Shown here one piece after another: positions 8,401 through 54,286 of a DNA stretch of 64,000 nt (its first letter is position 1; every line of letters begins with the position of its first letter). The notes below the pieces were generated by a model. It had not been told where the DNA came from. It saw only the letters and a program-made list of their open reading frames with translations, and did not search any database. The translations under genes and the position numbers were made by a program. Origin of the DNA: Dehalococcoidia bacterium (lineage in GTDB: Bacteria; Chloroflexota; Dehalococcoidia; Dehalococcoidales; JAUXAP01); NCBI GenBank assembly GCA_030619865.1, contig JAUXAP010000001.1, forward strand, positions 2,214-66,213. The letters run 5' to 3'.

Positions 8401-9363
8401 GTCATTAAGGTCACTGATAGCGAATCTGCCCCCATCTAGCTGAACCATAGGCCGCAGGTCAGGGGGTAGGACAGGCAACACAGTTAGAATCATCCATTCT
8501 GGTTTATTGCCGCTGCGATGAAAAGCCTCAACTACTTGTAGCTGCTTGCTTGCCTTCTTACGGCGTTGACCTGAAGTGGAATGGATTTCTTGGAGTAGCT
8601 TGTTACGCAGTTCACCAAGGTCAACACCCTTGATTAGTTGAAGAATAGCGTCCGCCCCCATCCCTGCCTCAAAAACCTGACCACATTTCTGTTTCATCTC
8701 CTGATACTGGTTCTCAGTAAGTAGCGCCCGCAGCTGAACGTCCTTTAGCTGTTCCACATCAGCGGAAAGCTGTTCTTCAAGCTGTGCCTTTTCCTCCTCC
8801 CAATTTCGCCGGAGCTGATTCACTTCTTCCACTGAAGCTTTCTTCATCTTTTTGATTTTAGCCTCAAGTGCCTTCTGGCGCTCAGTTATCTCCTGTGAGC
8901 TATTCTCTTCAAGTTGCTTAATTGCGTCCTGGCGCGCTTCCTCATCTATGGAAGTGACGATATAGTGGGAGAAGTATAGAATGCGCTCCAAGCTTCGTGG
9001 TGACAGGTCAAGCAGCAATCCCAATCGACTAGGTATACCCTTAGCAAACCAGATATGGCTCACCGGGCAGGCTAATTCTATATGTCCCATCCGTTCCCGG
9101 CGTACCTTAGCCCGAGCTACCTCGACGCCACACTTGTCGCAAATGACCCCCTTATAGCGTATCTTTTTATACTTACCACAAAAGCATTCAAAGTCTTTTG
9201 TCGGGCCAAAGATTCTCTCACAGAAAAGCCCGTCCCTTTCTGGCTTCAGAGTGCGATAGTTAATAGTCTCTGGCTTGGTTACCTCACCATAGGACCAACT
9301 TCTAATCTGCTCTGGCGAAGCCAGGGAGATACGGATAGCATCAAAATCGTTAACTTCAAGCAT
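5419..9363 (-). CDS. rpoC: DNA-directed RNA polymerase subunit beta-prime
   Basis: 1314 aa. It has the N-terminal zinc-ribbon CxC...CxxC region, the NADFDGDQM catalytic motif, and trigger-loop/bridge-helix regions. Its start overlaps the rpoB stop by 8 nt. Confidence 0.97.
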
Positions 9364-12300
9364 TTTCTTCTACCTCAGTTTCAGTCGAGTCTTCAACAAC
9401 TGTTTTGGATACTTCACTTTCGGCAACAGGGGTTAGTTCCTTTTCTTCTACCTCGGTTTCGGTTGAACTCTGACTAGCTTTAAGCTCCGCTTCCAATTCA
9501 GGTACTTCAGCAGCTTCCTCAGCAGGGGGCCCCTTCTCTTCTTCACTAATCACCTCAATGGCAAGCCCTAAGCTTTGCAGCTCCTTAACTAGAACCTTAA
9601 ATGATTCTGGCACACCAGGTTGGAGAATGCTCTCATTCTTAACTATAGCCTCATAGGTTTTGGCCCGACCGGTCACATCGTCTGACTTAATAGTCAGAAA
9701 TTCCTGAAGGTTATGAGCAGCGCCATAGGCTTCCAATGCCCATACCTCCATCTCACCAAAGCGCTGGCCTCCGAATTGAGCCTTGCCGCCCAGGGGCTGT
9801 TGGCTAATTAAGGAATAGGGTCCAGTAGAGCGAGCATGAACCTTATCTTCAACCAAGTGAATTAGCTTCATCATATAGATATTGCCCACCGTCACTGGCT
9901 GGTCAAATAGCTCACCACTGCGCCCATCACGGAGTGTAACCTTGCCGATGATAGGTGAGGGAAGATTCCTTTCAGCGCTAACCTTGCTCACAGTTTGCTC
10001 CAGCTCCTGTAGATTAAGGTCCTGACTAGCTACACCCAGATCTTCGAGCCATAGGCGCAGGCAAACCTCCCTTGCCTCTCCCGGATAGTCATCACTGAAC
10101 ACCCTCTCTCCGTCGTAGCCACGGTTTTCAAGCCATGCTTTAGTCAGTTCCACCTGCCCAGTGGTTTTTTCGTTACTAGGATCGAGGCCAGCCGCCCCTG
10201 CTTTTTGAGCTAGCCAAGCCCTAGCCAGAGCATCCTCAATAGCAGTGTCATCGGCACCATCAAAGATAGGAGTAAGTGCCTTGAAGCCCAGTATCTGAGC
10301 AGCCCAACCGAGATGGGTTTCCAGAACCTGGCCAATATTCATACGTGATGGAACACCTATAGGATTGAGAATAATATCTACCGGTGTGCCATCGGGCAGG
10401 AAAGGCATGTCTTCAGCCGGGGCTATGATGGAAATAACCCCCTTATTGCCGTGCCGCCCGGCTAGCTTATCCCCTACTGAAATTCTTCGTTTCTGAGCAA
10501 CCCAAACCTGCACCCATTGGTTAACCCCAGCCGGTAGGTCTTCGCCAGAGAAGACCTTAACATTAATCACTTTCCCCCACTCACCATGGGGTACCCTCAG
10601 GGAAGTATCTTTCACTTCTCGGGCTTTCTCACCAAAAATAGCCCGCAAAAGTTTCTCTTCAGCTGACAGCTCAGTCTCACCCTTTGGGGTAATTTTACCT
10701 ACCAGTATATCGTCCGGGCCCACCTCAGCACCAATCCGAATAATGCCATATTCATCAAGCTCACGTAAGCTTTCCTCACCCACATTAGGTATATCTCTGG
10801 TAATTTCTTCGGGACCCAGCTTGGTATCCCGGGCTTCTATTTCGTGCTTCAAAATATGAATAGAGGTAAACTTATCCTCCGTCACCAGGCGATTACTAAG
10901 AATAATAGCATCCTCAAAGTTATAGCCTTTCCAGCTCATAAAGGCGCACCGCACATTTTGCCCCAGAGCCAGCTCTCCTCGGTCGGTAGCCGAGCTATCA
11001 GCTAGAACCTGCCCCGACTCCACCCGGTCACCCTTGCTTACTAAGGGGCGCTGATTAATACAAGTTCCTTGATTGGTACGCACAAATTTCAGCAGTTGAT
11101 ACGCGTCCTTATCACCATTATCCTTGCTAATTACAATCTGCGAGCTCGTAACCGAGGTTACCACCCCAGCATTTTCGGCGAAGAGCACCTGCCCGCTATG
11201 CTTAGCCGCCTCTGTTTCCATACCAGTAGCTACCAAAGGTGCCTCAGGACAAATCAGAGGTACAGCCTGCCGCTGCATATTAGCTCCCATCAGAGCACGA
11301 TTAGCATCGTTGTGCTCTAGAAAGGGTATCAGTGATGTGGCAACACTAACTATCTGCTTGGGTGATACATCCATAAGATCAATTTTATCGGGTGTCTCCA
11401 GTAGGTAACGGTCGCCCAACCTAGCTTCAATTTTTTCTTCTATAAATTGACTATTCTGGTCAAGCTGGGCATTAGCCTGGGCAATAGTATATTTGTCTTC
11501 CTTATCGGCTGACAAGTAAACAACCTCATCAGAGACAAAGGGCACTACTCTTACAATTCTGGAAGGCAACTGAGATAGCTTACTGATATGCCGAGGGGTA
11601 ATGGTAACCCCAGCTTTTACTATAGTCTTACCTTTGTCATCAAGCACCGCCTCCCAGCTTGTTTTACCCACCAATTTGTCATAGTCTGCTGACAAGTAGA
11701 TAACCGCATCGATGAGGGGCACTACCTTTATAGTACTAGAGGCAGGTAGCTTAGATAGCTTTTTGACATGCCGAGAGGTAATGGTAACCCCAGCTTCTAC
11801 TATAGTATCGCCTTTATCATCAAGCACCGCCTCCCGGCTCACTTTACCTAGCAGACCATCATAGGTATTGCTTACTCCGGTAATAACCCAGCGGTATGGC
11901 GTCTCAATAAAGCCATACTGATTAATGCGGCTATAGGTAGCTAGGGAACCGATGAGACCAATGTTAGGTCCCTCCGGTGTTTCAATTGGGCAGATTCTAC
12001 CATAGTGGGAAAAGTGGACATCGCGGACATCAAAGCCGGCACGCTCACGAGAGAGACCTCCGGGCCCCATTGCCGATAAACGACGCTTATGAGTTAGCTC
12101 AGCCAAAGGGTTGGTTTGATCCATAAATTGTGACAATTGTGAGCTACCAAAGAACTCTCTGATGGCGGCCACCACCGGGCGAATATTAAGCAGAACGCTG
12201 GCGGTAACAGCCTCAGTACTGACAAGACTCATACGTTCTCTGGCTACTCGTGCCAAGCGCAATAACCCAATACGAAATTGGTTTTGCATCAGCTCACCAG

Positions 12301-13285
12301 CAGTGCGCACCCGCCGATTTCCCAAATGATCAATATCGTCGGGGGTGTCACTACCATTATTAACCATAATGATGTGCCTGATTATCTCTACAACGTCTTC
12401 TTTACTTAGAACTCGTTGGCTTTCCGGAACCTCAAGCCCTAACCGCTTATTAAGCTTATAGCGACCTACACTCCCCAGGTCATAACGCTGGGAATTGAAG
12501 AACAAGTTATTTATTAGTTTCCGGGCATTTTCAATATTAAGCGGGTCACCAGGACGTAACTTCTTATAGATATCAATCAAAGCCTCAGACTCATCCCTAA
12601 CTAAAGGCTCGCGCTCCATGGTTGATCTGATAAATTGGTGCTCCGAAGAGCTATCCTCCTTGGGGAACAAACTGAGCAATTGCTCATCACTACCATAACC
12701 AATAGCGCGCAAAAGGGTAGTAATAGGAATCTTCCGTTTACCATCTATCTTAGCTGAGATTACATCTCGGTTACTGGTCTCAAACTCTAACCAAGCCCCG
12801 CGACTGGGGATTAGCTTAGCATGGCACAAATTACGGCCACTAGTAGCATCTTCTTCAATGGCAAAGTAGACACCAGGAGAACGGAGTAACTGATTGACTA
12901 CCACCCGTTCAGCACCACTGATAATAAAGGTGCCTCTGGCTGTCATCAAGGGGATGTCACCGAAAAATAGGTCTTGCTCCTTGATTTCCCCCGTGCCTTT
13001 AACCAATAACTTGGCCCTAACATAGAGGGGGACTGAATAGGTCAGGTCTCGCTGACGGCATTCCTGCTCATCTTTCCAGCCATGAGGGATGCGAAATTCG
13101 TAATCCGTGAAGCTCAATTCAAGCCTGCTACCAGCGAAGTCACTGATAGGCGATACCTCCTCCAGTAACCGCTTTATGCCCTCTTCCTGAAACCAGCGGA
13201 ATGAATTTAGCTGAACTTCAATCAGGTTAGGTACGTCTAGCACCTGGGGTAACTTAGCATAAGATTTCCGGGAAATAGGAGGCAT
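9356..13285 (-). CDS. rpoB: DNA-directed RNA polymerase subunit beta
   Basis: Conserved rpoB blocks are present (GFIETPYR, the rif-region [24 protein letters not shown], and GRHGNKGV). The start is set at ATG 13285 ([21 protein letters not shown]). The track ORF extends to TTG 13339 with an unconserved 18-aa extension. Confidence 0.95.
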
Positions 13286-13472
13286 TCTCTTGTCAGCATT
13301 CGTTGCCGGTATAAAAACCAATCTAGCTCTGCTCCTCAAACAAGCATGCAGAATTTTGCATTAGTGTATTACTAATCACAAATAAGACCTGTGGTTAGTG
13401 GATGGGTATAATGATATAATGATAAATATAATAATAAGGCAAAAACCTTAGGGGACATAATTACAAACTTGT

Positions 13473-13501
13473 ACTATACCACTTATTTTAATACTTGTCA
13501 A
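13473..13501 (-). promoter_or_regulatory. Near-consensus sigma-70 promoter for rpoBC (TTGACA-N17-TATAGT with extended -10 TGG)
   Basis: The minus strand reads TTGACA (13501-13496), a 17-nt spacer ending in TGG, then TATAGT (13478-13473). This predicts a leader of about 180 nt before ATG 13285. Confidence 0.65.
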
Positions 13502-13699
13502 GTCCCCATTTGAATTGGTTCTTTTTCCTAAGCTCAGGCAATATGTGTACCTAATGGTTGACACTCCCAAGACTTTGTGTTAACACTATGAGAATGCTTC
13601 TTGCTTTCCTACAGATAGTAACCTTCTCGCCCTCTTTGATATAAAGAGGCTAAGTTTAATCAGCAGCCCCAGGGTTGCTTAATTAGCGGAGGTGTAAAA

Positions 13700-14335
13700 A
13701 TGAACAAAGTAAAGCAAATCTCCGAGGCAATAGTGCAGCTAAAGTGGGACGAAATCGCTGCGCTGACCAACGAAGCACTGGAAGCCGAAGTCCCAGCACT
13801 GGAGATACTAAACCAAGGCCTGGTGCCGGGAATGTCAGTGGTGGGCACTAAGTTCAGGAATGGTGAGATATTTTTACCTGAGGTGCTGCTTAGTGCCAGG
13901 ACTATGAAGACAGCGCTGGAGATACTGACACCCATCCTGAGCCAGCAGGACACTCCCTCCATGGGCCGGGTGGCCATCGGCACCGTAAAAGGTGACATAC
14001 ACGATATTGGCAAGAACATCGTGGTCAGTATGCTGGAGGGCAATGGTTTTGAAGTGATGGACCTCGGAATTGATGTTGACACAGAGAGATTCGTGGAGGT
14101 GGTCCGCGACAATAACCTACAGATACTTGGGCTATCGGCATTGCTCACCTCTACTATGCCCATGATAGAGGAGACAATAAAGGCACTCGAAAAGGCTGGA
14201 CTCGGGCAAAAGGTGCAGGTGATAGTAGGGGGTGCCCCGGTCACTCAGGCCTATGCCGACCAGATTGGCGCTGATGGCTACGGCGCCGATGCAGTGGCAG
14301 CAGTGGAGAAGGCACGGGACCTTATAGCAACTTAA
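13700..14335 (+). CDS. Corrinoid (B12-binding) protein, MtaC/MtbC/MetH-B12-domain type
   Basis: 211 aa. An N-terminal helical cap plus a Rossmann B12-binding domain with the DxHxxG motif (GDIHDIGKNIV) and a downstream SALLT...GG signature. SD GGAGGTG. Confidence 0.9.
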   Translation: MNKVKQISEAIVQLKWDEIAALTNEALEAEVPALEILNQGLVPGMSVVGTKFRNGEIFLPEVLLSARTMKTALEILTPILSQQDTPSMGRVAIGTVKGDIHDIGKNIVVSMLEGNGFEVMDLGIDVDTERFVEVVRDNNLQILGLSALLTSTMPMIEETIKALEKAGLGQKVQVIVGGAPVTQAYADQIGADGYGADAVAAVEKARDLIAT

Positions 14336-14369
14336 TCACACTAGCTAGAGATGATGGTGAGGTAAAATT

Positions 14370-15428
14370 ATGGCTAAGTACACAAACGCCGAACGGGTTT
14401 TCCAAGCTCTAGAGCGAAAGCAGCCGGACAGAATACCACACTTCGAGCTAACTATAGACCGTAAAATCATCAATAAGATTTTAGCAGGTGCAAGCTACGA
14501 GGAATTTATAGAGCATATGGACTGGGATGCGCTGGTACACCGTGACCGTGACTTCCTCAAGGAGGAGGTGCTCAGTGAGAGCCCCAGGACAACCCGCAAT
14601 GAGTGGGGTGCCGTCAAGCGCTACACCCAAGAAATTAGCCCGATACCTATAGAAGCACCGATAAAGTCCGAGAAGGACCTGGCGAATTACAAACCACCTG
14701 ATCCTGATGAGGAGCACCGCTTTAAACAAATACGACGGTGGGTTAAACGCTACAAGGGGGAGCGAGCTATCGTGGCTGTGGCTACCGACCACAACTCTAT
14801 AACCAGCGACATACTGGGCTTCTCGGAGCGGCTGATGGCTTTCTACACTAACCCGGAGTTAGTGCTTCGTGTACACCAGATAGTGCTTGACTACCAGCTG
14901 CGCTACATAAATAATGCCATCACCGCCGGCGCAGAGATTATCTTTATTGTCGGCGACTGGGCTTACAAGAACGGACCAATGTTCTCACTAGAGCACATGG
15001 ATAAATTTGTGTTTCCCCCATTCAGAGCTATGGTCCAGGAAGCAAAAAAACACGGCGTTTACGTGATGAAGCACACCGATGGCAACTGCTGGTCGTTCTT
15101 GGACGGTATTGTTGAAGCAGGGGTCGATTGCTTTCATCCGATAGATCCCATGGCTGACATGGATATCGGTGAAGCAAAGCAGAAGTACGGAGACGAGCTC
15201 TGTCTGATGGGTAACGTGAACTGCGCAACTACGTTGAGCTTCGGCACTGTAGAGGAAGTACGGCAGGAGACCAAGGAAGTCATACGCAAGGCCGGCCTTG
15301 GTGGGGGACTCATCGTTAGCTCCAGTAACTCCATACACTCGGCCGTCAAGCCGGAGAATTATGTAGAGATGGTGCGCACCATCAGGGAATACGGCAGGTA
15401 CCCCCTAGATATTAAATCGTTGAGTTGA
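14370..15428 (+). CDS. Uroporphyrinogen-decarboxylase-fold (URO-D/MtaA-like) methyltransferase
   Basis: 352 aa. The length and sequence pattern fit URO-D family corrinoid methyltransferases, and it is adjacent to the corrinoid protein. The substrate is not deducible. Confidence 0.7.
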   Translation: MAKYTNAERVFQALERKQPDRIPHFELTIDRKIINKILAGASYEEFIEHMDWDALVHRDRDFLKEEVLSESPRTTRNEWGAVKRYTQEISPIPIEAPIKSEKDLANYKPPDPDEEHRFKQIRRWVKRYKGERAIVAVATDHNSITSDILGFSERLMAFYTNPELVLRVHQIVLDYQLRYINNAITAGAEIIFIVGDWAYKNGPMFSLEHMDKFVFPPFRAMVQEAKKHGVYVMKHTDGNCWSFLDGIVEAGVDCFHPIDPMADMDIGEAKQKYGDELCLMGNVNCATTLSFGTVEEVRQETKEVIRKAGLGGGLIVSSSNSIHSAVKPENYVEMVRTIREYGRYPLDIKSLS

Positions 15429-15492
15429 ACATTACAGGAGCTTACAACCTCTGTTTTTGTGCTAACCAATCGGCTCGCTAAAGGAGAAAACG

Positions 15493-16200
15493 ATGCCCAT
15501 CCTTCATAATGTCCCTTTGACTCTGAGCATCGAGCAATTGCCACGTCGGCAGGGAGTCGGAGAACTTCTAAACCTCCGGCCAGAGATGATAACCCTATTA
15601 CACGAACTGCTAAATAGCGTGGATGAACTTCACCTGTTGGAGCCAGTTATAGCTTATGAATTGCACTCAATAACAGAGATGCAGCATGACCGATTGTGTT
15701 TGAAAGACGGTACAGCGTTTCATGGCCAACTGCTTCCCTCATTCCTGAAAACAGCTAGAGAACTTGCCATTGTGGTCTGCACTATCGGTCCCAGGCTTGA
15801 AGAAAAGGTAACAGACTACTTTAAGCGGGATGAGCCGCTGCAAGGCCTGCTGCTAGATGGTATCGGTAGCACAGCCGTGGATTCCCTTGTCCAGGAGGTC
15901 TGTCAGCTTATAAGGCATGAAGCATCATCCCGCGGTTATGAGGCTAGCAATTCCCTCAGTCCGGGTATGCCTGGCCTGCCTCTTTCAGAGCAGTGGCAGT
16001 TGTTTCAACTAGTGCCTGCAGAGCAAATTGGGGTGCATCTGACCTCTTCAGGAATGATGAGTCCGCGCAAGTCAGCCTCTATGATCATCGGCATAGGACC
16101 AGATATGCCAACCTGGACAGAAGCCCAAGCCTGCGACCGCTGCAGTCTAAAAGAAACCTGCCACTACCGAGTGTATACACATCCAGAGGCCACAACCTAA
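15493..16200 (+). CDS. Stand-alone homolog of the methionine synthase (MetH) activation domain
   Basis: 235 aa. The segment LLLDGIGSTAVDSLVQEVC...SLSPGMPGLPLSEQWQLFQLVPAEQIGVHLTSSGMMSPRKSASMIIGIG and the C-terminal CDRCSLKETCHYR match my memory of Met_synt_B12-type proteins found next to RACE genes. Confidence 0.6.
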   Translation: MPILHNVPLTLSIEQLPRRQGVGELLNLRPEMITLLHELLNSVDELHLLEPVIAYELHSITEMQHDRLCLKDGTAFHGQLLPSFLKTARELAIVVCTIGPRLEEKVTDYFKRDEPLQGLLLDGIGSTAVDSLVQEVCQLIRHEASSRGYEASNSLSPGMPGLPLSEQWQLFQLVPAEQIGVHLTSSGMMSPRKSASMIIGIGPDMPTWTEAQACDRCSLKETCHYRVYTHPEATT

Positions 16201-16215
16201 CAGGAGTAGCTAAAC

Positions 16216-18045
16216 ATGACATCTTATCATATTGATTTCGAGCCAGTGGGTCGGCGAGGAAAATGCCCGGCTGATAAGTGTCTTTTGGATTGCGCACATC
16301 AACTCGGTGTGGGTATTCTCAGCATGTGTGGTGGCCACGGAACCTGCCACTCGTGCAAGGTACAGGTTCTAAGTGGAACTGTCTCGGAGCCAACACCCCA
16401 TGAACAGGAGGCTCTCTCGCCTCAGGAACTGAAGAATGGCTGGCGTCTGGCCTGCCAGACGTATCCCACCAGTGATTGCAAATTGAGTGTGCCGCCCCAA
16501 TCGATGACCACGCCACAACGAATTCAGGTGGAGGGGTTAGAGGTCACTGTTGCTCCCGACCCACCGGTTCGTGCCTACCAGCTTCAGTTACCAGTCTCAT
16601 CTTTATCAGATCCACGGGCCGATAGCGAGCGCCTGCTGGAAACACTGGAGCAACAGCACCAGGTACACTGCAGCATTATTGACATTGATGTCCTGCGGAA
16701 TCTCTCGCCCCAGCTACGATCTTGGAACTGGCAAGCTCAGGCTTCAGTACGTGACAACGAAGTGGTAGCCCTTAGCCCCTGGTCCAGTCACAAACTGGGG
16801 CTAGCCATTGACCTAGGGACTACCAAAATAGCCGGTTATCTTGTTGACCTAGAGAATGGCCAGACGTTTGCCGCCAAGGGAATTATGAACCCGCAGGTCA
16901 GTTATGGGGAAGATATCATCAGCCGCATTACTAGTGCCACAAAATCACCAGTTGAGGCAGCACAAATACAACAGCTTACGGTAACTGCCATCAACCAGCT
17001 AGGTGTTGACCTGTGTGGTGAGGTTAATGCTAAGCCAGAGGAAATCGTTGAGGCAGTGGTGGTAGGCAACACAGCCATGCACCACCTCTTGCTGCGTCTA
17101 CCAGTGGAGCAGCTGGGTCTCTCCCCCTATGTGCCCGCAATTCGTGAGGCCTTGGATATTAAAGCCCGTGATATTGGGCTGCATATAGCATCGGGGGCCT
17201 ACGTACATTTGCTGCCCATCGTAGCTGGCTTTGTGGGAGCTGACCACGTAGCTATGCTGTTAGCTACGGAAGCTTGGCAAGCTGAGGGGCTAACAGTGGC
17301 AATAGACATTGGCACCAACACCGAGGTGAGCCTGGTAAGCGATGGCAAGGTGACCAGCGTCTCCTGCGCTTCTGGCCCTGCTTTTGAGGGAGGGCATATC
17401 AAGTGTGGCATGCGAGCTGCCAGCGGCGCTATAGAACGATTGCTACTAGTAGATGACCAGGTAGAATACCAGACTGTTGATGGAACCCCTCCGGTTGGGC
17501 TTTGTGGCTCAGGCATCCTGGATGCTATGGCCCAGCTCTATCTGGCCGGAGTCATCGATAAGGACGGCAGAATGAAAGATAATCATCCCCGAATGCGTAC
17601 TCGCCAAAAACAACTCGAATTTGTTCTGGTCAGCAAGGACGAACAAGATGGACACCCAGCTATTGTTATCACTCAGCAGGACATCCGAGAACTGCAACTG
17701 GCTAAGGCAGCTATTCGCACCGGTATCCAAGTGCTCCTGGAAACGAACGGCTGCTCTGAAGAAGAAATCAAACAGGTGATAATTGCTGGAGCCTTTGGCA
17801 GCTACATTAATGTGTCCAGTGCGGTAACTATCGGGATGTTGCCATCGCTAGCTCTGGATTGTTTCAGACAGGTAGGAAATGCCGCCGGCATGGGAGCCAA
17901 GCTGGCCCTTGTCTCACGTAGCAAGCGAGCCGAAGCACAGACAGTAGCCCGTCAGGTCGGCTATATCGAATTGGCCACTGCCCCTAATTTTATGCAGACC
18001 TTTGTCCAGGCAACACATATAGGACGCTACAATAGAGGAGGTTAA
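16216..18045 (+). CDS. Reductive activator of corrinoid-dependent enzymes (RACE): 2Fe-2S ferredoxin domain plus ASKHA ATPase (DUF4445)
   Basis: 609 aa. The N-terminal cysteine cluster is CGGHGTCHSCKV...LACQ. The large C-terminal domain has actin-like ATPase motifs (LAIDLGTTKIAGYL, VAIDIGTNTEV, GLCGSGILD). Confidence 0.9.
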   Translation: MTSYHIDFEPVGRRGKCPADKCLLDCAHQLGVGILSMCGGHGTCHSCKVQVLSGTVSEPTPHEQEALSPQELKNGWRLACQTYPTSDCKLSVPPQSMTTPQRIQVEGLEVTVAPDPPVRAYQLQLPVSSLSDPRADSERLLETLEQQHQVHCSIIDIDVLRNLSPQLRSWNWQAQASVRDNEVVALSPWSSHKLGLAIDLGTTKIAGYLVDLENGQTFAAKGIMNPQVSYGEDIISRITSATKSPVEAAQIQQLTVTAINQLGVDLCGEVNAKPEEIVEAVVVGNTAMHHLLLRLPVEQLGLSPYVPAIREALDIKARDIGLHIASGAYVHLLPIVAGFVGADHVAMLLATEAWQAEGLTVAIDIGTNTEVSLVSDGKVTSVSCASGPAFEGGHIKCGMRAASGAIERLLLVDDQVEYQTVDGTPPVGLCGSGILDAMAQLYLAGVIDKDGRMKDNHPRMRTRQKQLEFVLVSKDEQDGHPAIVITQQDIRELQLAKAAIRTGIQVLLETNGCSEEEIKQVIIAGAFGSYINVSSAVTIGMLPSLALDCFRQVGNAAGMGAKLALVSRSKRAEAQTVARQVGYIELATAPNFMQTFVQATHIGRYNRGG

Positions 18046-18048
18046 GTA

Positions 18049-18885
18049 GTGGAAACTAGATTGTCAAGTACCACGAAGGAGGTACTTATTAGCGACAAGG
18101 AGCCGACAATTCTTATCGGCGAGCGTATTAATCCTTCTGGCAAGCAGAAGTTGGTTGCAGCATTACAGGCTGGCAACCTAGAGCTTGTGCGCAAGGAGGC
18201 TCTAGCTCAGGTGCAAGCTGGAGCGGATATCCTCGATGTCAACGTCGGTGCCGCCGGTGTGGATGAGGTGACCCTGCTTCCCCAGGCTGTGCAGGCAGTG
18301 ACGGATGTAGTAGATGTACCCTTATGTCTTGACAGCAGTAATCCCGCAGCCTTAGAGTCGGCCTTAAAAGTCTATCACGGCAAGCCCCTCATCAACTCAG
18401 TCACTGGTGAAGAACACCGTCTGGTGAAGGTTCTGCCTCTGGTCAAGAAATACAAGACAGCAGTCATTGGTCTGACCATGGATGATGAAGGTATCCCGAA
18501 TAATCCAGAGCGACGAGCAGCCATCGCTCATAAGATTGTGGAGCGGGCCGAGGCATCTGGTATCCCCCGTGAGGATATTATCATTGATTGTCTGAGTTTG
18601 TCGATAGGAGCAGATAACGAAGCTGGTCTGGTGACCATCGAAACCATTGGCAAGGTAAAGGCTGAGCTGGGGGTAAACTTGACTCTAGGAGCTAGTAATA
18701 TTTCTTTCGGTCTACCTGATCGTAATTTGCTTAATAGCGCCTTCTTGGTCACGGCTATCATTGCCGGAGTGAACTGTCCCATCGTGGATGTGGCTAAAGC
18801 ACGCCCGATTATCCTAGCTGCTGACCTAATTCTGGGTCGCGATAAACACGCCAGACGTTATATTGAAGCTTACCGCCAACGCTAG
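18049..18885 (+). CDS. Pterin-binding methyltransferase (methyl-H4folate:corrinoid, AcsE/MeTr/MetH-pterin-domain like)
   Basis: 278 aa. GTG start 7 nt after GGAGG. LIGERINPSGKQKL, LDVNVG, LCLDSS, INSV and SNISFGLP are the conserved blocks of the DHPS-like pterin-binding barrel. Confidence 0.85.
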   Translation: METRLSSTTKEVLISDKEPTILIGERINPSGKQKLVAALQAGNLELVRKEALAQVQAGADILDVNVGAAGVDEVTLLPQAVQAVTDVVDVPLCLDSSNPAALESALKVYHGKPLINSVTGEEHRLVKVLPLVKKYKTAVIGLTMDDEGIPNNPERRAAIAHKIVERAEASGIPREDIIIDCLSLSIGADNEAGLVTIETIGKVKAELGVNLTLGASNISFGLPDRNLLNSAFLVTAIIAGVNCPIVDVAKARPIILAADLILGRDKHARRYIEAYRQR

Positions 18886-18900: not shown

Positions 18901-20763
18901 CTACTTAATGTCCAATTCTTCTACTTTTTCTGGGGTGGGTATACCAGTTTTCGCATCCCAGCCCATTAGAGTATAGTAATAGCTTTTAGCCTCCTCCAGC
19001 TGTTCACGGTCATAGAACTTGGTGGATAGGACTCCATTCCTTTTCGGCTGGAAGAAACGGTCAGGCAGCTTATCGTCAGCAGCACTGAGCCCCTCCCGAA
19101 TATTAAATAGCCTAGCCATGGTCATAGTTCTCTCAGCTGCCCTCAGCATTTCAACTGGGCTGGTATCCCAGCCAGTAACTGCTGTCAATATATCAGCAAC
19201 CTGGTTTGCATCATAAGGTAGCATTGCGCAGACCACAAGATTATCTATAACAATATTAAACAGATGTATATCTCGGAATGCGGCTACCTTACGTACCCCA
19301 AGGTCATCAGCGGGAAGAGGCTCCAACATTCCTAAGAGCCTAGCGCTATCAAAGGATGACCCCGGTTGGCTGTAGCCAGTATCATGCATATTGTCACAGT
19401 GGTCAGCCCCGTGCGGGTTAACCGCATAGCCTAAGCCCAGAGCCGCTTTTACTCTCGGATCATGCATTCCTAGTTCCAGTCCCTTACTGTGCATGGCGAA
19501 TTTCTCGGCCCCTTTGCCGATTTTTTGGGCAGCCCGAGCCGTTCCCTCAGCCAGCAGGTCGCCAATACCCTCACGCCTGGCAATCAATTCAATGACCTTA
19601 AGCATGGCTTCAGCATTGCCAAATTTCAGTTCAATACCATTGGTATCCTTAGTAGTCAGCAGCCCGTTCTCAAAGCACTCCATGGCGAAAGCAATGACAG
19701 CCCCTGCAGAAATGGTGTCCAGAGAATAGGCATTACAGAGTTCATTCCCTTTAGTGACTGCCTTAAGGTCGCCTATGCCACAGTTAGAACCTATAGCGGC
19801 TAATGTTTCATATTCCGGGCCACCGTAGGCAGGATCAACAGAGTAAGGTTCGTCAAACTTGACCACCTTTTTACAGCGAACAGGACAGGCATAACAAGCT
19901 TCCATCTTAATCCTGATGGTGTCTCTTATTGCCTGAGCACTTATATCTGTTGCCGCTGGGAATTCACCATCTAAGAAATTACGAATTGGTAGATTCCCAG
20001 TAGCGATATGGGTCTCCATCATCGCCCCGGTGCCCAAGTCATGAAGCGATGCCCAACGTTGCGGATTGTCTAAGACCCACTGCCGGATTTCCTTCACACG
20101 CTCAGGGTCAGCCACTTTGGGTCTCTTGTGACCTCTAACAGCAATAGCTTTGAGGTTCTTGGAACCCATTACTGCCCCTGTGCCTCCTCTGCCGGCAGCA
20201 TCCTTAAGGTCGTTCATGATGCAGGCAAAGCGTACCAGGTTTTCTCCCCCCGGCCCTATGGATGTTACTCGAATCAGACTATCTCCCAGCTCATCTCTAA
20301 TAGTCTGTTCTGTCTCTTTGGTATTCTTTCCCCAGAGGTGGCTGGCGTCCCGTAGGCTGGCTTCTCCATCCTGAATCCAGAGGTAGACCGGTTTTTCCGC
20401 CTTACCCTCAACAATAATAGCATCAAAGCCAGCATGCTTGAGCTCGGCACCCCAGAATCCACCAACCTCTGACTTGGAATAGCTTCCGGTCAGGGGCGAT
20501 TTGGCACCAATACAATGACGACCACTGCCCGGTAATGGGACTCCGGTCACCGGTCCAGCGGCAAAGATTAGCTTGTTATCGGGACCTAGTGGGTCAACCC
20601 CTGGTTTTAGTTCCTTCCACAGAAAGTAGGCAATGAAGCCAGCACCACCCAAATACTTCCGGCAGAAAAGTTCATCAATTGTCTCTTCAGATATGCTATT
20701 GTCAGACAGATTCACTCTCAGGATTTTACCGTTATAACCACCCGGTACCTGTTCAGCCATCAA
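18901..20763 (-). CDS. Aldehyde:ferredoxin oxidoreductase family (tungsto/molybdopterin) enzyme
   Basis: 620 aa. The N-terminus is the AOR type (GYNGKILRVNLSDNSISEE...KYLGGAGF). The 4Fe-4S cysteines lie in EACYACPVRCKK. The length is typical. Confidence 0.9.
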   Translation of the reverse strand: MMAEQVPGGYNGKILRVNLSDNSISEETIDELFCRKYLGGAGFIAYFLWKELKPGVDPLGPDNKLIFAAGPVTGVPLPGSGRHCIGAKSPLTGSYSKSEVGGFWGAELKHAGFDAIIVEGKAEKPVYLWIQDGEASLRDASHLWGKNTKETEQTIRDELGDSLIRVTSIGPGGENLVRFACIMNDLKDAAGRGGTGAVMGSKNLKAIAVRGHKRPKVADPERVKEIRQWVLDNPQRWASLHDLGTGAMMETHIATGNLPIRNFLDGEFPAATDISAQAIRDTIRIKMEACYACPVRCKKVVKFDEPYSVDPAYGGPEYETLAAIGSNCGIGDLKAVTKGNELCNAYSLDTISAGAVIAFAMECFENGLLTTKDTNGIELKFGNAEAMLKVIELIARREGIGDLLAEGTARAAQKIGKGAEKFAMHSKGLELGMHDPRVKAALGLGYAVNPHGADHCDNMHDTGYSQPGSSFDSARLLGMLEPLPADDLGVRKVAAFRDIHLFNIVIDNLVVCAMLPYDANQVADILTAVTGWDTSPVEMLRAAERTMTMARLFNIREGLSAADDKLPDRFFQPKRNGVLSTKFYDREQLEEAKSYYYTLMGWDAKTGIPTPEKVEELDIK

Positions 20764-20996
20764 CTTTACCTCCTTGTACTATTTGGCATAACTTACTGAG
20801 CAGTATAAATCTGTGGCCAGATGTAGTCAAGCCAACTCAGTCTCTTCTGACTACGCCATTCCTCCTGTATCTGCCAAAGGTTTCTTGCTACAGCATACAC
20901 TGTGCAACAATCATTTAAGTTTGCTGATTTGACAGCCACAGAGCCAAGGTTTTATCATTACCATTGTAGTTGATAACCGACGTAAGGAGGACATCA

Positions 20997-21593
20997 ATGA
21001 TTAATAGGATTGCCATTGTCAAACCTCACCCTTTTCCCATGATACTAAAGTACACTGACATTCGCAGCTATATTCTTACCGGCGTTTTCGTTTTATTAAA
21101 TGTTGCCGTACCTTGGGTTTTCCACCAGTTTCATCTGGCTGGTCCCACCTTCCTACCCATGCATATCTTTGTCTTCGTAGCCGGATTACTATTTGGCTGG
21201 CGGGCGGGTTTAATTGTTGGCTTCCTTACCCCCCTGGCTAGCTATACGGTATCGGGAATGCCAGTGCTGCCGATTTTACCCCAAATAGTAGTTGAACTTT
21301 CTGTCTATGGTCTGGTAGCCGGGATGCTACGGGAAAAGTTTAATCTGCAAATGGTGTGGGCACTACTGGGAGCGATGATAGCCGGACGTTTAGCCTTATG
21401 TCTAGGAGTTTTAGCGATATACCTTACTATAGGAAATGTTTATAGCCCCCTCGGTTTAGAAGCTAACCCATTATTCGTGGCTTGGTCGGTAATTAAACAG
21501 GGATGGCCAGGCATCGTTATCCAGCTAGCTTTGATACCGGCAGTTATCTGGCTGGTAGGGAGATTGACCGCGAAAACGTCGAGGAGTAGATAG
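20997..21593 (+). CDS. Multi-pass membrane protein, ECF-transporter S-component-like
   Basis: About 5-6 TM helices, small size. The start is moved to ATG 20997 (SD AAGGAGG at 20983-20989). A candidate promoter TTGACA (20929)-N18-TATCAT (20953) lies upstream. The family call is tentative. Confidence 0.45.
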   Translation: MINRIAIVKPHPFPMILKYTDIRSYILTGVFVLLNVAVPWVFHQFHLAGPTFLPMHIFVFVAGLLFGWRAGLIVGFLTPLASYTVSGMPVLPILPQIVVELSVYGLVAGMLREKFNLQMVWALLGAMIAGRLALCLGVLAIYLTIGNVYSPLGLEANPLFVAWSVIKQGWPGIVIQLALIPAVIWLVGRLTAKTSRSR

Positions 21594-21599
21594 CCTTAG

Positions 21600-22013
21600 G
21601 TGCACAAGCATCTCTTCAACGGATTCTTGGCCAGCAGTGACACCCTTCGGGTGTATAAAGGTGACAAATTAATCTTCTCCTCAGATAAAGATAGATTGCT
21701 GCCCTTACTTGAATACATTGATCGGTTTAGTCCTCATCACCAGCAGGTAGTAATATTCGATAAAATAATGGGTAACGCTGCCGCCTTGCTATCCATCAAG
21801 GCTGGTTGTCAGGAGGTATACAGTCCGCTGGGCAGCCAGCTCGCTGCCAAGACACTGGACAAATATGGCATTAAATATCACCTTGCCAAAGTTGTACCCT
21901 ATATTCAGAAACCTGGCGGGGAAGATATGTGCCCTATGGAGAAACTATCGATAGATAAGGGGCCAGAAGCATTCTATAAAGTAATGAGAAACATTATCAA
22001 TAAAAGGGCATAA
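21600..22013 (+). CDS. DUF1893 (TM1506-like) domain protein
   Basis: 137 aa. The pattern LRVYKGDKLIFSSDKDRLLPLLEYI...VIFDKIMGNAAALL...GCQEVYS is what I recall for DUF1893. GTG start. Confidence 0.45.
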   Translation: MHKHLFNGFLASSDTLRVYKGDKLIFSSDKDRLLPLLEYIDRFSPHHQQVVIFDKIMGNAAALLSIKAGCQEVYSPLGSQLAAKTLDKYGIKYHLAKVVPYIQKPGGEDMCPMEKLSIDKGPEAFYKVMRNIINKRA

Positions 22014-22048
22014 AAAGTAATCTTGTAATATGCTATAATTTCGCTGGT

Positions 22049-22124
22049 GGGGATATAGCTCAGTAGGGAGAGCGCTGCGTTCGCATCGCAGAGGTTGGGG
22101 GTTCGAATCCCCCTATCTCCACCA
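22049..22124 (+). tRNA. tRNA-Ala (anticodon CGC)
   Basis: Hand-folded cloverleaf. Acceptor GGGGATA/TATCTCC with the G3:U70 alanine identity pair; anticodon loop TTCGCAT; T-arm GGGGG-TTCGAAT-CCCCC; encoded CCA. Confidence 0.9.
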
Positions 22125-22191: not shown

Positions 22192-23241
22192 TTACACTTT
22201 GTAGGCCTGCCAAGTACCCATGCAGCCGTGACCCTTACGCACGTGGAACAGACCTTTAGCTGGTTCGGCAATGTAGCCAACGATTGAGTGATTATGTCCT
22301 TCTCCATGGCGACAAATGCCAGCGGGGTCACCCTCGTGGTCTGCCAGAATAGCTTTCATTGTATCTAATGTTATCTTTCCCCACTGTTCCTTAATAAGGT
22401 AACGCATACGTTCTAAGCGTGGCTTAGAATCGGGTAGCCAATCCGGGTCATAAGGAATGAACTGAGGTACGAGATAGTGGTTAGTGTGGATGCGCCAATC
22501 TGGATGGTCGTCGGTGAAGATGGCAACACCTCCAGGTCTAACTTCAACGTCAGCAATGCTGCCTTGACCATCACATATTACCTTATTGAAAGCAGAACAG
22601 GTTCTATTCTGCTCTAATAAGCTCACACACTCCTCAACAGTCCGCTTCTCTAGCATAATTCGGTTTAAAGGATAACGAAACATGGCTCGCCGAAATTCGA
22701 GGTCCAGGCTGTGAAGACCATTGATTAAGTGGGCTACCCCGTACTCATTCATTCCCTGATGGCCCAACTGCCCGGCACAAGTAACCATAAGCGCCCTGGG
22801 ACGCTCATCACTAGGTTTGACATGAAGTAGGATAGTGATATCGCTGAATTCCGGCCGCATGTCCTCATTCTGACCTATGATAGTATTACCGTCTGCGGTT
22901 GCCGAATCAGTAATAGCAAAAGCAGTACAGCCACCTCCATGCGCTTTAGCAACCTCATGCCTGGTCTGGCAAAGCAAAGCCTCTTCGAAGCTTATGTCCG
23001 CTCCTTTAGCCAGACCACGGATTTCGTCCACCAGCGCTACGCTTAGATTCTCAAACATGGGCAGGAAAGCCATTGCGCAGTTGCAGAGTAACTCATGGGG
23101 TTCCCCGGTCATCTTTTCAATCCATCTTAGATAGTTTCGCACTAGCTGGCGTGCCTGAACACCGTGCTGATACCCCATCTCATACGATGTACCTGATACT
23201 TCTATGAGGGGGAAAGTATTTTCTCCAGTATTCATGCTCAA
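22192..23241 (-). CDS. Peptidase C45 family protein (acyl-CoA:6-APA acyltransferase-like Ntn hydrolase)
   Basis: 349 aa. GTSYEMGYQHGVQARQLV near the N-terminus and a GGCTAF nucleophile-cysteine block are typical of C45 proteins. Confidence 0.65.
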   Translation of the reverse strand: MSMNTGENTFPLIEVSGTSYEMGYQHGVQARQLVRNYLRWIEKMTGEPHELLCNCAMAFLPMFENLSVALVDEIRGLAKGADISFEEALLCQTRHEVAKAHGGGCTAFAITDSATADGNTIIGQNEDMRPEFSDITILLHVKPSDERPRALMVTCAGQLGHQGMNEYGVAHLINGLHSLDLEFRRAMFRYPLNRIMLEKRTVEECVSLLEQNRTCSAFNKVICDGQGSIADVEVRPGGVAIFTDDHPDWRIHTNHYLVPQFIPYDPDWLPDSKPRLERMRYLIKEQWGKITLDTMKAILADHEGDPAGICRHGEGHNHSIVGYIAEPAKGLFHVRKGHGCMGTWQAYKV

Positions 23242-23268
23242 CTCATCTCCTTTCCAATAAAAAGTTGC

Positions 23269-24750: not shown

Positions 24751-24755
24751 TTCAT

Positions 24756-25460: not shown

Positions 25461-25478
25461 GATGTACTCGCCTCATTT

Positions 25479-27158: not shown

Positions 27159-27239
27159 TATGCCTGCCGTGGTAATAATATGTTTTTGATGTTTAATTTG
27201 CAAGGAAGGTTCATTTTGGGTTCCTGAGATTAATCACGG

Positions 27240-52140: not shown

Positions 52141-52188
52141 AGTAAATTAATAAAAATCAAAGAAGGAATAAAATTTGAACCTTTAAGC

Positions 52189-54286
<2,098 letters not shown>

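What the first reader, a model, noticed from the sequence alone, without database searches (positions are those of the whole stretch)
13700..18885. Five-gene corrinoid methyltransferase module that looks like a MetH split into pieces, with a URO-D-fold enzyme in place of the homocysteine domain and two reactivation devices
The locus holds five co-directional, tightly spaced genes:
- a B12-binding protein (DxHxxG: GDIHDIGKNIV);
- a URO-D/MtaA-fold methyltransferase;
- a free-standing homolog of the MetH activation domain;
- a RACE-type ATP-dependent reductive activator (CGGHGTCHSC 2Fe-2S domain plus ASKHA ATPase);
- a pterin-binding MeTr/AcsE-like methyltransferase.

Together these are the pterin, B12 and activation modules of cobalamin-dependent methionine synthase as separate polypeptides. 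The homocysteine barrel is replaced by a URO-D-fold protein. A RACE activator is encoded alongside the MetH-type activation domain.

No known substrate-specific MT1 family (MtaB, MttB/MtbB/MtmB) is present. Where MtaA-type thiol methylases carry an HxC zinc motif (from memory), this protein reads VMKHTDGNCW. So the methyl donor or acceptor cannot be assigned. A tungsten-type aldehyde:ferredoxin oxidoreductase is convergent immediately downstream (18901-20763) and could be redox-linked.
Basis: partly seen in the sequence, partly recalled or inferred. Interest (0 to 1): 0.65.

Follow-up and report, generated by a model that had tools for sequence, protein, structure and literature searches.

The report
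Corrinoid methyl-transfer operon with extra activation protein
This is a five-gene vitamin-B12-dependent system, common in uncultured Dehalococcoidia-type bacteria, that most likely strips a methyl group off an unknown nutrient and hands it to folate; it is not a dismantled methionine synthase, but it carries an unstudied helper protein and an unstudied type of first methyltransferase.

Summary
All five genes are real, at the stated coordinates, and every domain call holds. They are a corrinoid protein, a URO-D-fold protein, a homolog of the MetH activation domain ("G3"), a RACo-type activator and a MeTr-type pterin methyltransferase.

The "split MetH with URO-D replacing the homocysteine barrel" reading is not the best one. 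The locus is an instance of a widespread operon of uncultured Chloroflexota, in the order CP, URO-D MT I, G3, RACo, MeTr. All five genes were found in 19 of 43 species-representative loci with enough flank. The URO-D slot there is normally held by a 440-450 aa relative of CdmB (a characterised chloromethane MT I, E 2e-35).

The window instead carries a 352-aa URO-D from an uncharacterised clade. That clade nearly always travels with its own corrinoid protein, often beside TRAP transporters. Its MtaA-type His-Cys-Cys zinc site reads His235-Asp237-Asn320, the pattern reported for O-type rather than thiol methyltransferases.

Best model: unknown methylated substrate, then Co(I)-CP, then H4folate, with RACo plus G3 for reactivation.

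G3 resembles Thermotoga TM0269. It lacks the RxxxGY AdoMet motif and adds an invariant CxxCx5C. I found no description of it in the searchable literature.

Verdict: new variant of a known kind. Substrate and G3 role are unresolved.

The parts
13340..13699 (+). Divergent intergenic region between rpoB (- strand) and the operon. It holds a GGAGG ribosome-binding site 6-7 nt before the ATG at 13700. No riboswitch was found.
   Evidence: Sequence read. The Rfam gathering scan found nothing here. Promoter-like hits only match a consensus.
13700..14335 (+). Corrinoid (B12-binding) protein, 211 aa, with a cap domain, a Rossmann B12 domain and a DxHxxG motif. It is the cognate methyl carrier of the adjacent URO-D protein.
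   Evidence: PF02607 and PF02310. TIGR02370 scores 206.9 bits, just under its cutoff. It is 75-83% identical to the CPs next to close URO-D352 orthologs, but only 36-40% identical to the CPs of 450-type operons.
14370..15428 (+). URO-D-fold protein, 352 aa, of an uncharacterised clade. It is the probable substrate:corrinoid methyltransferase (MT I). The zinc-site positions read His235-x-Asp237...Asn320.
   Evidence: PF01208 at 113.7 bits. The AF2 model has pLDDT 93, and the best Foldseek match is MtaA 4AY7 (TM 0.72, 16% identity). It is paired with a CP in most of 86 related loci.
15493..16200 (+). G3: a 235-aa protein like TM0269 and the MetH activation domain. It has an invariant C-terminal CxxCx5C (C214, C217, C223) and C137. 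The RxxxGY AdoMet motif is replaced by P/S-x-x-P-G-M. It is a probable accessory factor for corrinoid reactivation.
   Evidence: 1J6R at E 3e-11 and 1e-11. PF02965 at 24.4 bits, and 21/21 family members match it. It is positioned between the MT I and RACo genes in GTDB loci.
16216..18045 (+). RACE/RACo-type ATP-dependent reductive activator of corrinoid proteins. It has an N-terminal [2Fe-2S] ferredoxin domain, a linker, a middle domain and an ASKHA ATPase domain.
   Evidence: PF00111, PF17650, PF17651 and PF14574. NF040756 AcsV scores 436 bits, below its cutoff of 800. It is 56-72% identical to the RACo genes that follow G3 in other loci.
18049..18885 (+). Pterin-binding MeTr/AcsE-type methyltransferase. 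It is the probable methyl-corrinoid:tetrahydrofolate methyltransferase (MT II).
   Evidence: PF00809 at 2.3e-31. NF005719 scores 297 bits, above its cutoff of 259. It follows RACo in 30 of 58 G3 loci with enough downstream sequence.
18901..20763 (-). Aldehyde:ferredoxin oxidoreductase family protein, convergent, 15 nt from the MeTr stop codon. The association is recurrent but not proven to be functional.
   Evidence: PF02730 and PF01314. The same convergent position occurs in L026, L046 and L051, and an upstream position occurs in 9 further loci. AFOR is present in 14 of 56 G3 loci with enough flank, against about 5 of 86 URO-D352 loci.

Best explanation
The locus encodes a catabolic, corrinoid-dependent methyl-transfer system of the MT I / CP / MT II / activating-enzyme type.

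**Proposed steps**
1. The 352-aa URO-D protein (MT I) takes a methyl group from an as yet unknown methylated substrate. The substrate is most likely an O- or N-methylated organic anion. The methyl group goes onto the Co(I) form of the adjacent corrinoid protein.
2. The MeTr-type enzyme (MT II) passes the methyl group from CH3-Co(III)-CP to tetrahydrofolate.
3. When the cofactor is oxidised to Co(II), the RACo protein reduces it back to Co(I) using ATP and a low-potential electron.
4. G3 works with RACo and the CP in this repair step. It is a relative of the MetH activation domain that has lost the AdoMet motif and gained a Cys cluster. It may hold the B12 domain in an activation conformation or relay an electron or metal.

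**Shown**: gene order, domain identities, conservation of the five-gene architecture, the pairing of this URO-D clade with its own CP, and the His-Asp-Asn site.

**Inferred**: the direction of methyl flow, the MT I role, the substrate class and the role of G3.
For: - Domain identities.
- A GTDB scan with the G3 profile gave 80 loci, mostly Dehalococcoidia MAGs.
- In 58 of those loci with enough upstream sequence, 44 have a URO-D gene directly upstream of G3 and 47 have a CP.
- In 58 with enough downstream sequence, 39 have RACo directly downstream and 32 have MeTr.
- All five genes are present in 19 of 43 loci with both flanks.
- G3 and RACo genes lie -20 to +45 nt apart in 45 of 52 loci.
- The usual URO-D partner (438-450 aa) matches the characterised chloromethane MT I CdmB at 2.2e-35. 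CdmB, MtoB, MtvB, OdmB and VdmB are MT I enzymes working with a CP, an MT II and an AE (PMC13222342, PMC8630106).
- The 352-aa clade sits next to its own CP in the large majority of 86 loci. It has tandem paralogs and is usually far from any MT II or AE. This is the pattern of substrate-specific MT I/CP modules that share a common MT II/AE.
- Its commonest neighbours are TRAP transporter genes: DctM in 17 loci, and DctP and DctQ in 13 each.
- The MtaA zinc ligands His-Cys-Cys align to His235-Asp237-Asn320, all at least 98% conserved. In the UroD superfamily His-Cys-Cys marks S-methyltransferases. Replacement of Cys by a carboxylate or a non-ligand marks O-methyltransferases (PMC10418091).
Against: - No biochemical data exist for any member of the 352-aa clade or of G3.
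- The 352-aa clade is structurally as close to MtaA (an MT2) and to UROD as to the known MT I clade. The CdmB profile match is only 1e-5 over the C-terminal 140 aa.
- The full five-gene arrangement with this particular URO-D clade was seen only in the window and, rearranged, in L009. The adjacency of the CP/URO-D module to G3-RACo-MeTr could therefore be a recent juxtaposition.
- The neighbours of orthologs vary: amino-acid-type enzymes, hydantoinases, recombinases. They give no consistent substrate.
- No H4folate-oxidising or Wood-Ljungdahl genes are in the window.
Confidence: 0.68

Rival explanations
1. Split methionine synthase, or another thiol methylase. MeTr loads methyl from CH3-H4folate onto the CP. 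The URO-D protein replaces the homocysteine barrel and methylates homocysteine or another thiol. G3 and RACo are MetH-type and RACE-type reactivators.
For: - CP, MeTr and G3 are homologous to MetH modules.
- The closest solved relative of G3, TM0269, is needed to reactivate Thermotoga MetH (1J6R; Huang et al. 2007 as cited in PMC7857596).
- Split MetH with a RamA-like activator exists in Phaeobacter and Desulfovibrio (PMC5764234).
- The URO-D fold is related to MetE and core-MetE (Foldseek hits to MetE at 5e-7).
Against: - There is no thiolate-type zinc site. Positions are His-Asp-Asn instead of His-Cys-Cys or His-Cys-Glu-Cys (PMC10418091, PMC7857596).
- No PF02574 domain is present.
- The clade occurs as many paralogs, each with its own CP, beside transporters and catabolic genes. 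A single housekeeping copy would be expected for a methionine synthase.
- The equivalent slot in the conserved operon is a CdmB-like MT I.
- G3 lacks the RxxxGY AdoMet motif.
Confidence: 0.07
2. Fortuitous juxtaposition. The CP/URO-D352 pair is an independent MT I module that has landed next to a general-purpose G3-RACo-MeTr hub serving all the MT I/CP modules of the genome. The five genes are then not a dedicated unit, and G3 is tuned to other (450-type) CPs.
For: - CP/URO-D352 pairs are usually found without G3, RACo or MeTr.
- G3-RACo-MeTr trios occur without an upstream MT I (L017, L018, L026, L027, L053, L075).
- The window's CP is only 36-40% identical to the CPs of typical G3 operons.
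- None of the fetched loci shares the window's rpoB or ECF flanks.
Against: - The spacing is tight and all genes are on one strand (3-64 nt), with no terminator-like site between URO-D and G3.
- L009 again has both modules within 8 kb.
- L105, L153 and L158 have MeTr or RACo next to a CP/URO-D352 pair.
- A shared hub would still activate and unload this CP, so the mechanism is the same.
Confidence: 0.15
3. G3 is a genuine AdoMet-dependent reductive-methylation module, as in MetH and TM0269. RACo supplies the electron and G3 traps Co(I) by methylation from AdoMet. The locus would then combine both known repair chemistries.
For: - Homology to TM0269 and PF02965.
- The invariant P157-G158 corresponds to the PG of the RxxxGY motif.
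- G3 is always adjacent to RACo and the CP.
Against: - The Arg and Tyr of RxxxGY are replaced (P/S and M/D/E) throughout 130 family representatives.
- RACE systems studied so far need only ATP and a reductant (PMC8630106, PMC13222342).
- The extra invariant CxxCx5C has no counterpart in TM0269; the alignment ends 8 residues before the TM0269 C-terminus.
Confidence: 0.12

Closest known systems
Bacterial and archaeal O-demethylase or chloromethane methyltransferase systems (MtvABC, OdmABD/VdmB, MtoABCD, CdmBCA plus an AE)
   Same: - A four-part logic: a URO-D-superfamily MT I, an MtaC-like CP with DxHxxG, an MT II to a pterin carrier, and a RACE-type AE with an N-terminal [2Fe-2S].
- MT I and CP genes are adjacent.
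- The typical Dehalococcoidia version of this operon carries a CdmB-like MT I (2e-35).
   Different: - The window's MT I is 352 aa, only 24% identical to the 450-aa type. It is nearer to MtaA and UROD by profile and fold.
- The described systems contain no G3-like gene. None is mentioned in the text of the Mto paper, and the published Cdm cluster is cdmBCA with the AE encoded elsewhere.
- The substrate is unknown.
MtaA/MtbA/MtsA methylcobamide:CoM methyltransferases and Mlp proteins (MT2 or S-methyltransferases of the UroD superfamily)
   Same: - Same fold and size. MtaA is the best structural match (4AY7, TM 0.72).
- The His of the HxC motif is conserved.
- The gene is encoded next to a CP and a RACE protein.
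   Different: - The zinc ligands Cys-Cys are replaced by Asp237 and Asn320.
- TIGR01463 scores 90.8 against a cutoff of 235.
- A H4folate methyltransferase is present, unlike type 1 mlp clusters (PMC10418091).
Cobalamin-dependent methionine synthase, including split forms (Thermotoga TM0268/TM0269; the Phaeobacter three-part MetH with a RamA-like protein and DUF1638)
   Same: - Homologous B12, pterin and activation modules.
- A free-standing protein like the activation domain (TM0269).
- Precedent for a RACE/RamA-like activator serving a MetH-type corrinoid domain together with a second accessory protein.
   Different: - No homocysteine domain (PF02574).
- G3 lacks RxxxGY and has an added CxxCx5C.
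- The accessory protein in Phaeobacter and in mec cassettes is a DUF protein (the Phaeobacter one is DUF1638), not PF02965-like.
- The genomic pattern is catabolic and multi-paralog.
RACo/AcsV of the Wood-Ljungdahl CoFeSP
   Same: Same four-domain architecture (Fer2, linker, middle, ASKHA C-terminal domain).
   Different: It scores 436 bits against the AcsV cutoff of 800. It sits in a methyltransferase operon rather than an acs operon, and it is coupled to G3.

Membership tests
Corrinoid-dependent MT I/CP/MT II/AE methyltransferase system | Corrinoid protein with a B12-binding_2 cap, a B12-binding domain and a DxHxxG motif | tested here: met
   PF02607 at 6.8e-24 and PF02310 at 1.7e-28; GDIHDIG motif
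Corrinoid-dependent MT I/CP/MT II/AE methyltransferase system | Pterin-binding methyl-corrinoid:H4folate methyltransferase (MeTr/AcsE/MtvA type) | tested here: met
   PF00809 at 2.3e-31; NF005719 at 297 bits, above its cutoff of 259
Corrinoid-dependent MT I/CP/MT II/AE methyltransferase system | RACE-type activating enzyme ([2Fe-2S] domain plus ASKHA ATPase) | tested here: met
   PF00111, PF17650, PF17651 and PF14574
Corrinoid-dependent MT I/CP/MT II/AE methyltransferase system | Substrate:corrinoid methyltransferase activity of the URO-D protein, and net methyl transfer to H4folate | not testable with these tools
   Supported only by context: pairing with its own CP, and a CdmB-like MT I in the same slot elsewhere
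MtaA/CmuA family (TIGR01463) and the MtaA/MtbA equivalogs | Score above the curated cutoff | tested here: not met
   TIGR01463 at 90.8 against 235; PRK06252 at 85 against 244; MtbA at 60.7 against 600; MtaA at 60 against 400
MtaA/CmuA family (TIGR01463) and the MtaA/MtbA equivalogs | His-Cys-Cys zinc site (HxC...C) | tested here: not met
   MtaA H-I-C aligns to H235-T-D237. The MtaA Cys in PGCG aligns to N320. All three positions are at least 98% conserved in the family.
O-demethylase/CdmB clade of MT I (MtvB, OdmB, VdmB, MtoB, CdmB) | Clear full-length sequence similarity to a characterised member; about 400-450 aa with N-terminal extensions | tested here: not met
   The family profile against CdmB 9RUI reaches only 9.6e-6 over the C-terminal 140 residues. 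The protein is 352 aa. It is 24% identical to the 450-aa Dehalococcoidia type.
Cobalamin-dependent methionine synthase (MetH), split form | Homocysteine S-methyltransferase domain (PF02574) or another zinc-thiolate homocysteine site | tested here: not met
   No PF02574 hit in any of the five proteins. The URO-D site is His-Asp-Asn.
Cobalamin-dependent methionine synthase (MetH), split form | Activation domain with the RxxxGY AdoMet-binding motif | tested here: not met
   TM0269 R-I-S-P-G-Y aligns to S-L-S-P-G-M. In 130 representatives the Arg position is mostly Pro and the Tyr position is M/D/E/L. That RxxxGY is the AdoMet motif is recalled from the MetH literature, not tested here.
PF02965 Met_synt_B12 / TM0269-like proteins | Significant match to the family profile or to a solved member | tested here: inconclusive
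   PF02965 at 24.4 bits against a gathering score of 25, with only 46 aa matched. However, 1J6R hits at E 3e-11 over 129 aa, and 21/21 family members match PF02965. The AF2 model was too poor (pLDDT 45) to test the fold.
Uroporphyrinogen decarboxylase HemE | TIGR01464 score above cutoff | tested here: not met
   42.7 bits against 303. The gene is coupled to a corrinoid protein.
AcsV (CoFeSP activator) equivalog | NF040756 score above cutoff | tested here: not met
   435.9 bits against 800. It has the same domain architecture but is not an AcsV ortholog.

The most novel reading that the evidence does not exclude
Two linked novelties remain open.

(a) G3 may define a third kind of corrinoid-repair factor. 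It would be a MetH-activation-domain fold that has lost AdoMet binding, gained a Cys3(-4) metal or Fe-S site, and works as an obligate partner of RACE-type activators. That would merge the MetH-type and RACE-type repair strategies.

(b) The 352-aa His-Asp-Asn URO-D clade may be a previously unknown class of MT I whose substrates are N-methylated amino-acid-like or other anionic methyl compounds, rather than methoxy-aromatics. This is hinted at by TRAP transporters, aminotransferases, proline-racemase/MR_MLE epimerases, amidases and hydantoinases around orthologs. It would be the first URO-D-fold N-demethylase that I know of.
Probability: 0.25. Interest if true: 0.7.

Novelty: new variant of a known kind. 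Interest (0 to 1): 0.5.

Why it matters
Dehalococcoidia and related Chloroflexota are among the most abundant bacteria in anoxic sediments and the subsurface. What they eat is largely inferred.

A conserved, multi-paralog corrinoid methyltransferase machinery points to methyl groups as an important carbon and electron source for them. More than 594 related stretches of this URO-D clade turned up in one metagenome scan. The G3 profile matched 279 50%-identity clusters at E no higher than 1e-30.

Identifying the substrates would add a term to sediment C1 budgets. It would also compete with methylotrophic methanogenesis for the same compounds.

G3 is a cheap experimental handle on how ATP-driven RACE activators engage small MtaC-type corrinoid proteins. 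It could improve in-vitro corrinoid "methyl shuttle" biocatalysis, where cofactor inactivation is limiting.

Tried and rejected
- **Structure of G3.** The first job was lost. The rerun gave pLDDT 45 and pTM 0.36 with a 21-sequence alignment, so no fold search was attempted.
- **Literature.** The searches "Dehalococcoidia + O-demethylase + corrinoid", "Dehalococcoidia + MtaA", "Dehalococcoidia + methoxylated aromatic" and "methionine synthase activation + corrinoid" returned nothing relevant. The library is limited to open-access papers and bioRxiv, so absence is weak evidence.
- **Type 1 mlp clusters (Kountz and Balskus).** Considered and rejected. They have several Mlps with His-Cys-Cys sites and no H4folate methyltransferase.
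- **mec cassette MecG/MecH.** This is a precedent for RACE plus an accessory protein, but MecG is a DUF protein. G3 shows no Pfam match other than PF02965 at E up to 1.
- **Synteny test.** None of the 174 fetched loci carries homologs of the window's rpoB/rpoC, ECF-S, DUF1893 or AAT genes. The operon's chromosomal position is therefore not conserved, and a clean "cassette swap at one site" could not be shown.
- **Riboswitch or regulatory RNA upstream.** None found. The terminator scan was no better than shuffles.
- **Taxon names.** Assignment to Chloroflexota/Dehalococcoidia rests on the names of the nearest named homologs.
- **G3-RACo fusion as Rosetta-stone evidence.** Only one short contig shows it (L174/P0385), and there are none among 80 GTDB loci. 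With genes normally -20 to +45 nt apart, an indel artefact cannot be excluded.
- **Rest of the window.** The window was screened for folate, Wood-Ljungdahl or methionine genes. It holds only housekeeping, sugar and pyrimidine genes.


Full report
**Observation**

The window holds five co-directional ORFs at exactly the coordinates given: 13700-14335, 14370-15428, 15493-16200, 16216-18045 and 18049-18885. The gaps between them are 34, 64, 15 and 3 nt. A GGAGG ribosome-binding site precedes the first ATG.

- A corrinoid protein (CP) with PF02607 and PF02310 and the DxHxxG motif.
- A URO-D-fold protein (PF01208, 113.7 bits).
- A RACo-type activator with all four RACo domains.
- A pterin-binding MeTr-type methyltransferase. 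It passes the curated NF005719 cutoff (297 bits against 259).

The third gene, called G3 here, reaches only 24.4 bits on PF02965, against a gathering score of 25. Two further results support the call. It hits the free-standing Thermotoga activation protein TM0269 (PDB 1J6R) at E 3e-11 over 129 residues. All 21 aligned relatives also hit PF02965.

A convergent AFOR-family gene ends 15 nt after the MeTr stop codon.

**What the locus belongs to**

A profile of G3 relatives was scanned against one genome per GTDB species. It returned 80 loci. Nearly all are from Dehalococcoidia, Dehalococcoidales or other Chloroflexota MAGs. A few are from Thermodesulfobacteriota or "Deltaproteobacteria", Actinomycetota and Bathyarchaeia MAGs.

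I located homologs of the window's proteins in these loci with tblastn. The results show a strongly conserved architecture in the order CP, URO-D, G3, RACo, MeTr:
- Of 58 loci with enough upstream DNA, 44 have a URO-D gene immediately before G3 and 47 have a CP.
- Of 58 loci with enough downstream DNA, 39 have RACo immediately after G3 and 32 have MeTr.
- All five genes are present in 19 of 43 loci with both flanks.
- G3 and RACo lie -20 to +45 nt apart in 45 of 52 cases.

The five-gene module is therefore a real, recurrent unit and not a chance neighbourhood.

In those loci the URO-D gene is almost always a 438-450 aa type. That type matches CdmB, the recently characterised chloromethane:corrinoid MT I of Acetobacterium dehalogenans (PDB 9RUI), at E 2.2e-35. 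CdmB groups with the O-demethylase MT I enzymes MtoB, MtvB, OdmB and VdmB (PMC13222342). A typical example is L041. It adds a Liv-type ABC transporter, an AFOR and an SDR upstream.

**What is special about the window's copy**

Its URO-D protein is 352 aa and only 24% identical to the 450-aa type. It belongs to a large clade with no characterised member:
- More than 1,265 homologs were found in the protein database, and only generic names were attached.
- At least 594 stretches matched in one metagenome scan.
- Every curated NCBIfam model for MtaA, MtbA, MtaA/CmuA and HemE scores far below its cutoff.

The AF2 model is confident (pLDDT 93). Its best structural match is MtaA from Methanosarcina mazei (4AY7, TM 0.72, 16% identity). 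Uroporphyrinogen decarboxylases follow closely and MetE is far behind.

In 86 related loci this clade sits next to its own CP in the large majority. That CP is 45-83% identical to the window's CP, whereas the CPs of 450-type operons are only 36-40% identical. The clade is sometimes found as tandem paralogs. It is usually far from any MT II or activator. This is how substrate-specific MT I/CP modules behave in organisms that share one MT II/AE set among many such modules.

Clustering the flanking ORFs gives these recurrent neighbours:
- TRAP transporter genes: DctM in 17 loci, and DctP and DctQ in 13 each.
- An SDR (8 loci).
- A ProV-like ABC ATPase (5 loci).
- MttB-family genes with their own CP (4 loci).
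- Ldh_2, class-III aminotransferases and MR_MLE enzymes (4 loci each).

Close orthologs (69-83% identity) lie beside the following genes:
- An amidase, an M20 peptidase and aminotransferases.
- A proline-racemase-family protein and a TAXI-TRAP binding protein.
- A formamidase.
- Hydantoinase A and B.

This suggests an anionic, possibly N-containing methylated substrate. It is too variable to name one.

**Active-site reading**

The MtaA zinc ligands were aligned with family profiles and a family consensus. MtaA H-I-C aligns to H235-T-D237. The Cys of MtaA's PGCG aligns to N320. H235, D237 and N320 are 98-100% conserved in 116 sequences.

Kountz and Balskus (PMC10418091) summarise the rule for the UroD superfamily. 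S-methyltransferases have His-Cys-Cys. In O-methyltransferases one or both Cys are replaced by carboxylates or non-ligands.

The window's protein therefore does not look like a thiol methylase. That includes a homocysteine methylase.

**G3**

The family is large. The profile search found 279 50%-identity clusters at E no higher than 1e-30 and 2,917 at E no higher than 1e-10. Where it is named at all it is called "hypothetical protein" or "AdoMet activation domain-containing protein".

Conservation across 130 representatives:
- C214, C217 and C223 (CxxCx5C) are essentially invariant.
- C137 is conserved in about half overall, and is invariant among close relatives.
- P157-G158 is invariant. However, the Arg and Tyr that flank it in TM0269 (R-I-S-P-G-Y) are replaced by P/S and M/D/E/L. 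They correspond, from my knowledge of MetH, to the RxxxGY AdoMet motif.
- TM0269 has no counterpart of the C-terminal Cys motif.

G3 is thus a derived member of the activation-domain lineage. It probably does not bind AdoMet in the classical way, and it probably binds a metal or an Fe-S cluster.

The characterised Mto and Cdm systems describe no such gene. The nearest precedent for RACE plus a second protein is RamA-like plus DUF1638 in Phaeobacter methionine synthesis (PMC5764234), and MecH/MecG in mec cassettes (bioRxiv 10.1101/2021.08.30.458270). G3 shows no Pfam match other than PF02965.

One short contig encodes an in-frame G3-RACo fusion right after a CP (L174). With no second example it may be an indel artefact.

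**Mechanism proposed**

1. URO-D352 (MT I) transfers a methyl group from an unknown O- or N-methylated organic anion to Co(I)-CP.
2. MeTr (MT II) transfers the methyl group to H4folate.
3. RACo, with ATP and a low-potential electron, repairs Co(II)-CP.
4. G3 assists this step. It may do so by docking on the B12 domain as the MetH activation domain does, or by relaying an electron or metal.

The AFOR gene is enriched near G3 operons (14 of 56 loci, against about 5 of 86 for URO-D352 modules). It occupies the same convergent position in L026, L046 and L051. It may oxidise a substrate-derived aldehyde or feed reduced ferredoxin to RACo. This is inference only.

**Rivals**

- The split-MetH or thiol-methylase reading is disfavoured by four things: the His-Asp-Asn site, the absence of PF02574, the multi-paralog catabolic context, and the CdmB-like occupant of the same slot elsewhere.
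- A looser reading cannot be excluded. In it, the CP/URO-D352 pair merely landed beside a general G3-RACo-MeTr hub. The mechanism would barely change.
- A true AdoMet-dependent role for G3 is possible but not favoured.

**Novelty and limits**

All five protein families are known, and so is the MT I/CP/MT II/AE logic. Three things appear undescribed in the literature I could search:
- The conserved inclusion of a TM0269-like, Cys-motif protein between the MT I and RACE genes.
- The 352-aa His-Asp-Asn URO-D clade.
- The prevalence of both in Dehalococcoidia.

The literature library is limited to open-access papers and bioRxiv. No biochemistry is available. The G3 model failed (pLDDT 45). The organism is named only by proxy. 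The window itself offers no folate, Wood-Ljungdahl or methionine genes to fix the direction of methyl flow.

Noticed in passing
window 9356-13339 (-): RpoB is 1327 aa and contains an internal tandem duplication of about 50 aa ([33 protein letters not shown]... and [34 protein letters not shown]...). This looks like a lineage-specific insertion. The rpoB and rpoC ORFs overlap by 8 nt.
   Followed up: no
window 20970-22124: An ECF-transporter S component (PF12822) is followed 6 nt later by a DUF1893/TM1506 protein, and then by tRNA-Ala(cgc). The vitamin or substrate specificity is unknown. The pair sits just beyond the AFOR gene.
   Followed up: partly
window 52176-54290: A PyrR binding site (RF00515, at its gathering score) lies upstream of a pyrR-like PRTase. 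It is followed by a 476-aa aspartate carbamoyltransferase that carries a PyrI_C metal-binding domain fused to its C-terminus (a PyrB-PyrI(C) fusion).
   Followed up: no
L174 (ENA k141_1987846) 347-2692: A corrinoid protein gene is followed by a single ORF that fuses a G3 domain in frame to the [2Fe-2S], linker and middle domains of RACo. This is either a possible Rosetta-stone fusion or an indel artefact. None was seen among the 80 GTDB loci.
   Followed up: partly
L138 1331-13350; also L101, L109, L145: Some loci gather a CP/MttB-family (non-Pyl trimethylamine methyltransferase family) module, extra CPs, a CP/URO-D352 module and a TRAP transporter within about 12 kb. These look like methylotrophy islands with several MT I families.
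   Followed up: partly
L094 5370-6365, L096 1459-3051, L041 15770-16753, L012 1-557: Integrase or serine-recombinase genes lie within a few kb of several CP/URO-D or G3 operons. The window's operon has a unique chromosomal position among fetched loci (next to rpoB). Together these hint that the modules are mobile.
   Followed up: no
L020 (Bathyarchaeia MAG), L019, L022, L028 (Thermodesulfobacteriota or delta MAGs), L049, L080 (Actinomycetota MAGs): The complete CP, URO-D450, G3, RACo, MeTr operon occurs in MAGs of other phyla, with 70-85% identity to the Dehalococcoidia URO-D. This points to either horizontal transfer or binning error.
   Followed up: no
window 22192-28133 (-): This region holds a peptidase C45/AAT-family protein, followed by a sugar-type cluster of an L-fucose-isomerase-like protein, a class II aldolase, an FGGY kinase and a PfkB kinase. 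It is unrelated to the methyltransferase operon.
   Followed up: no
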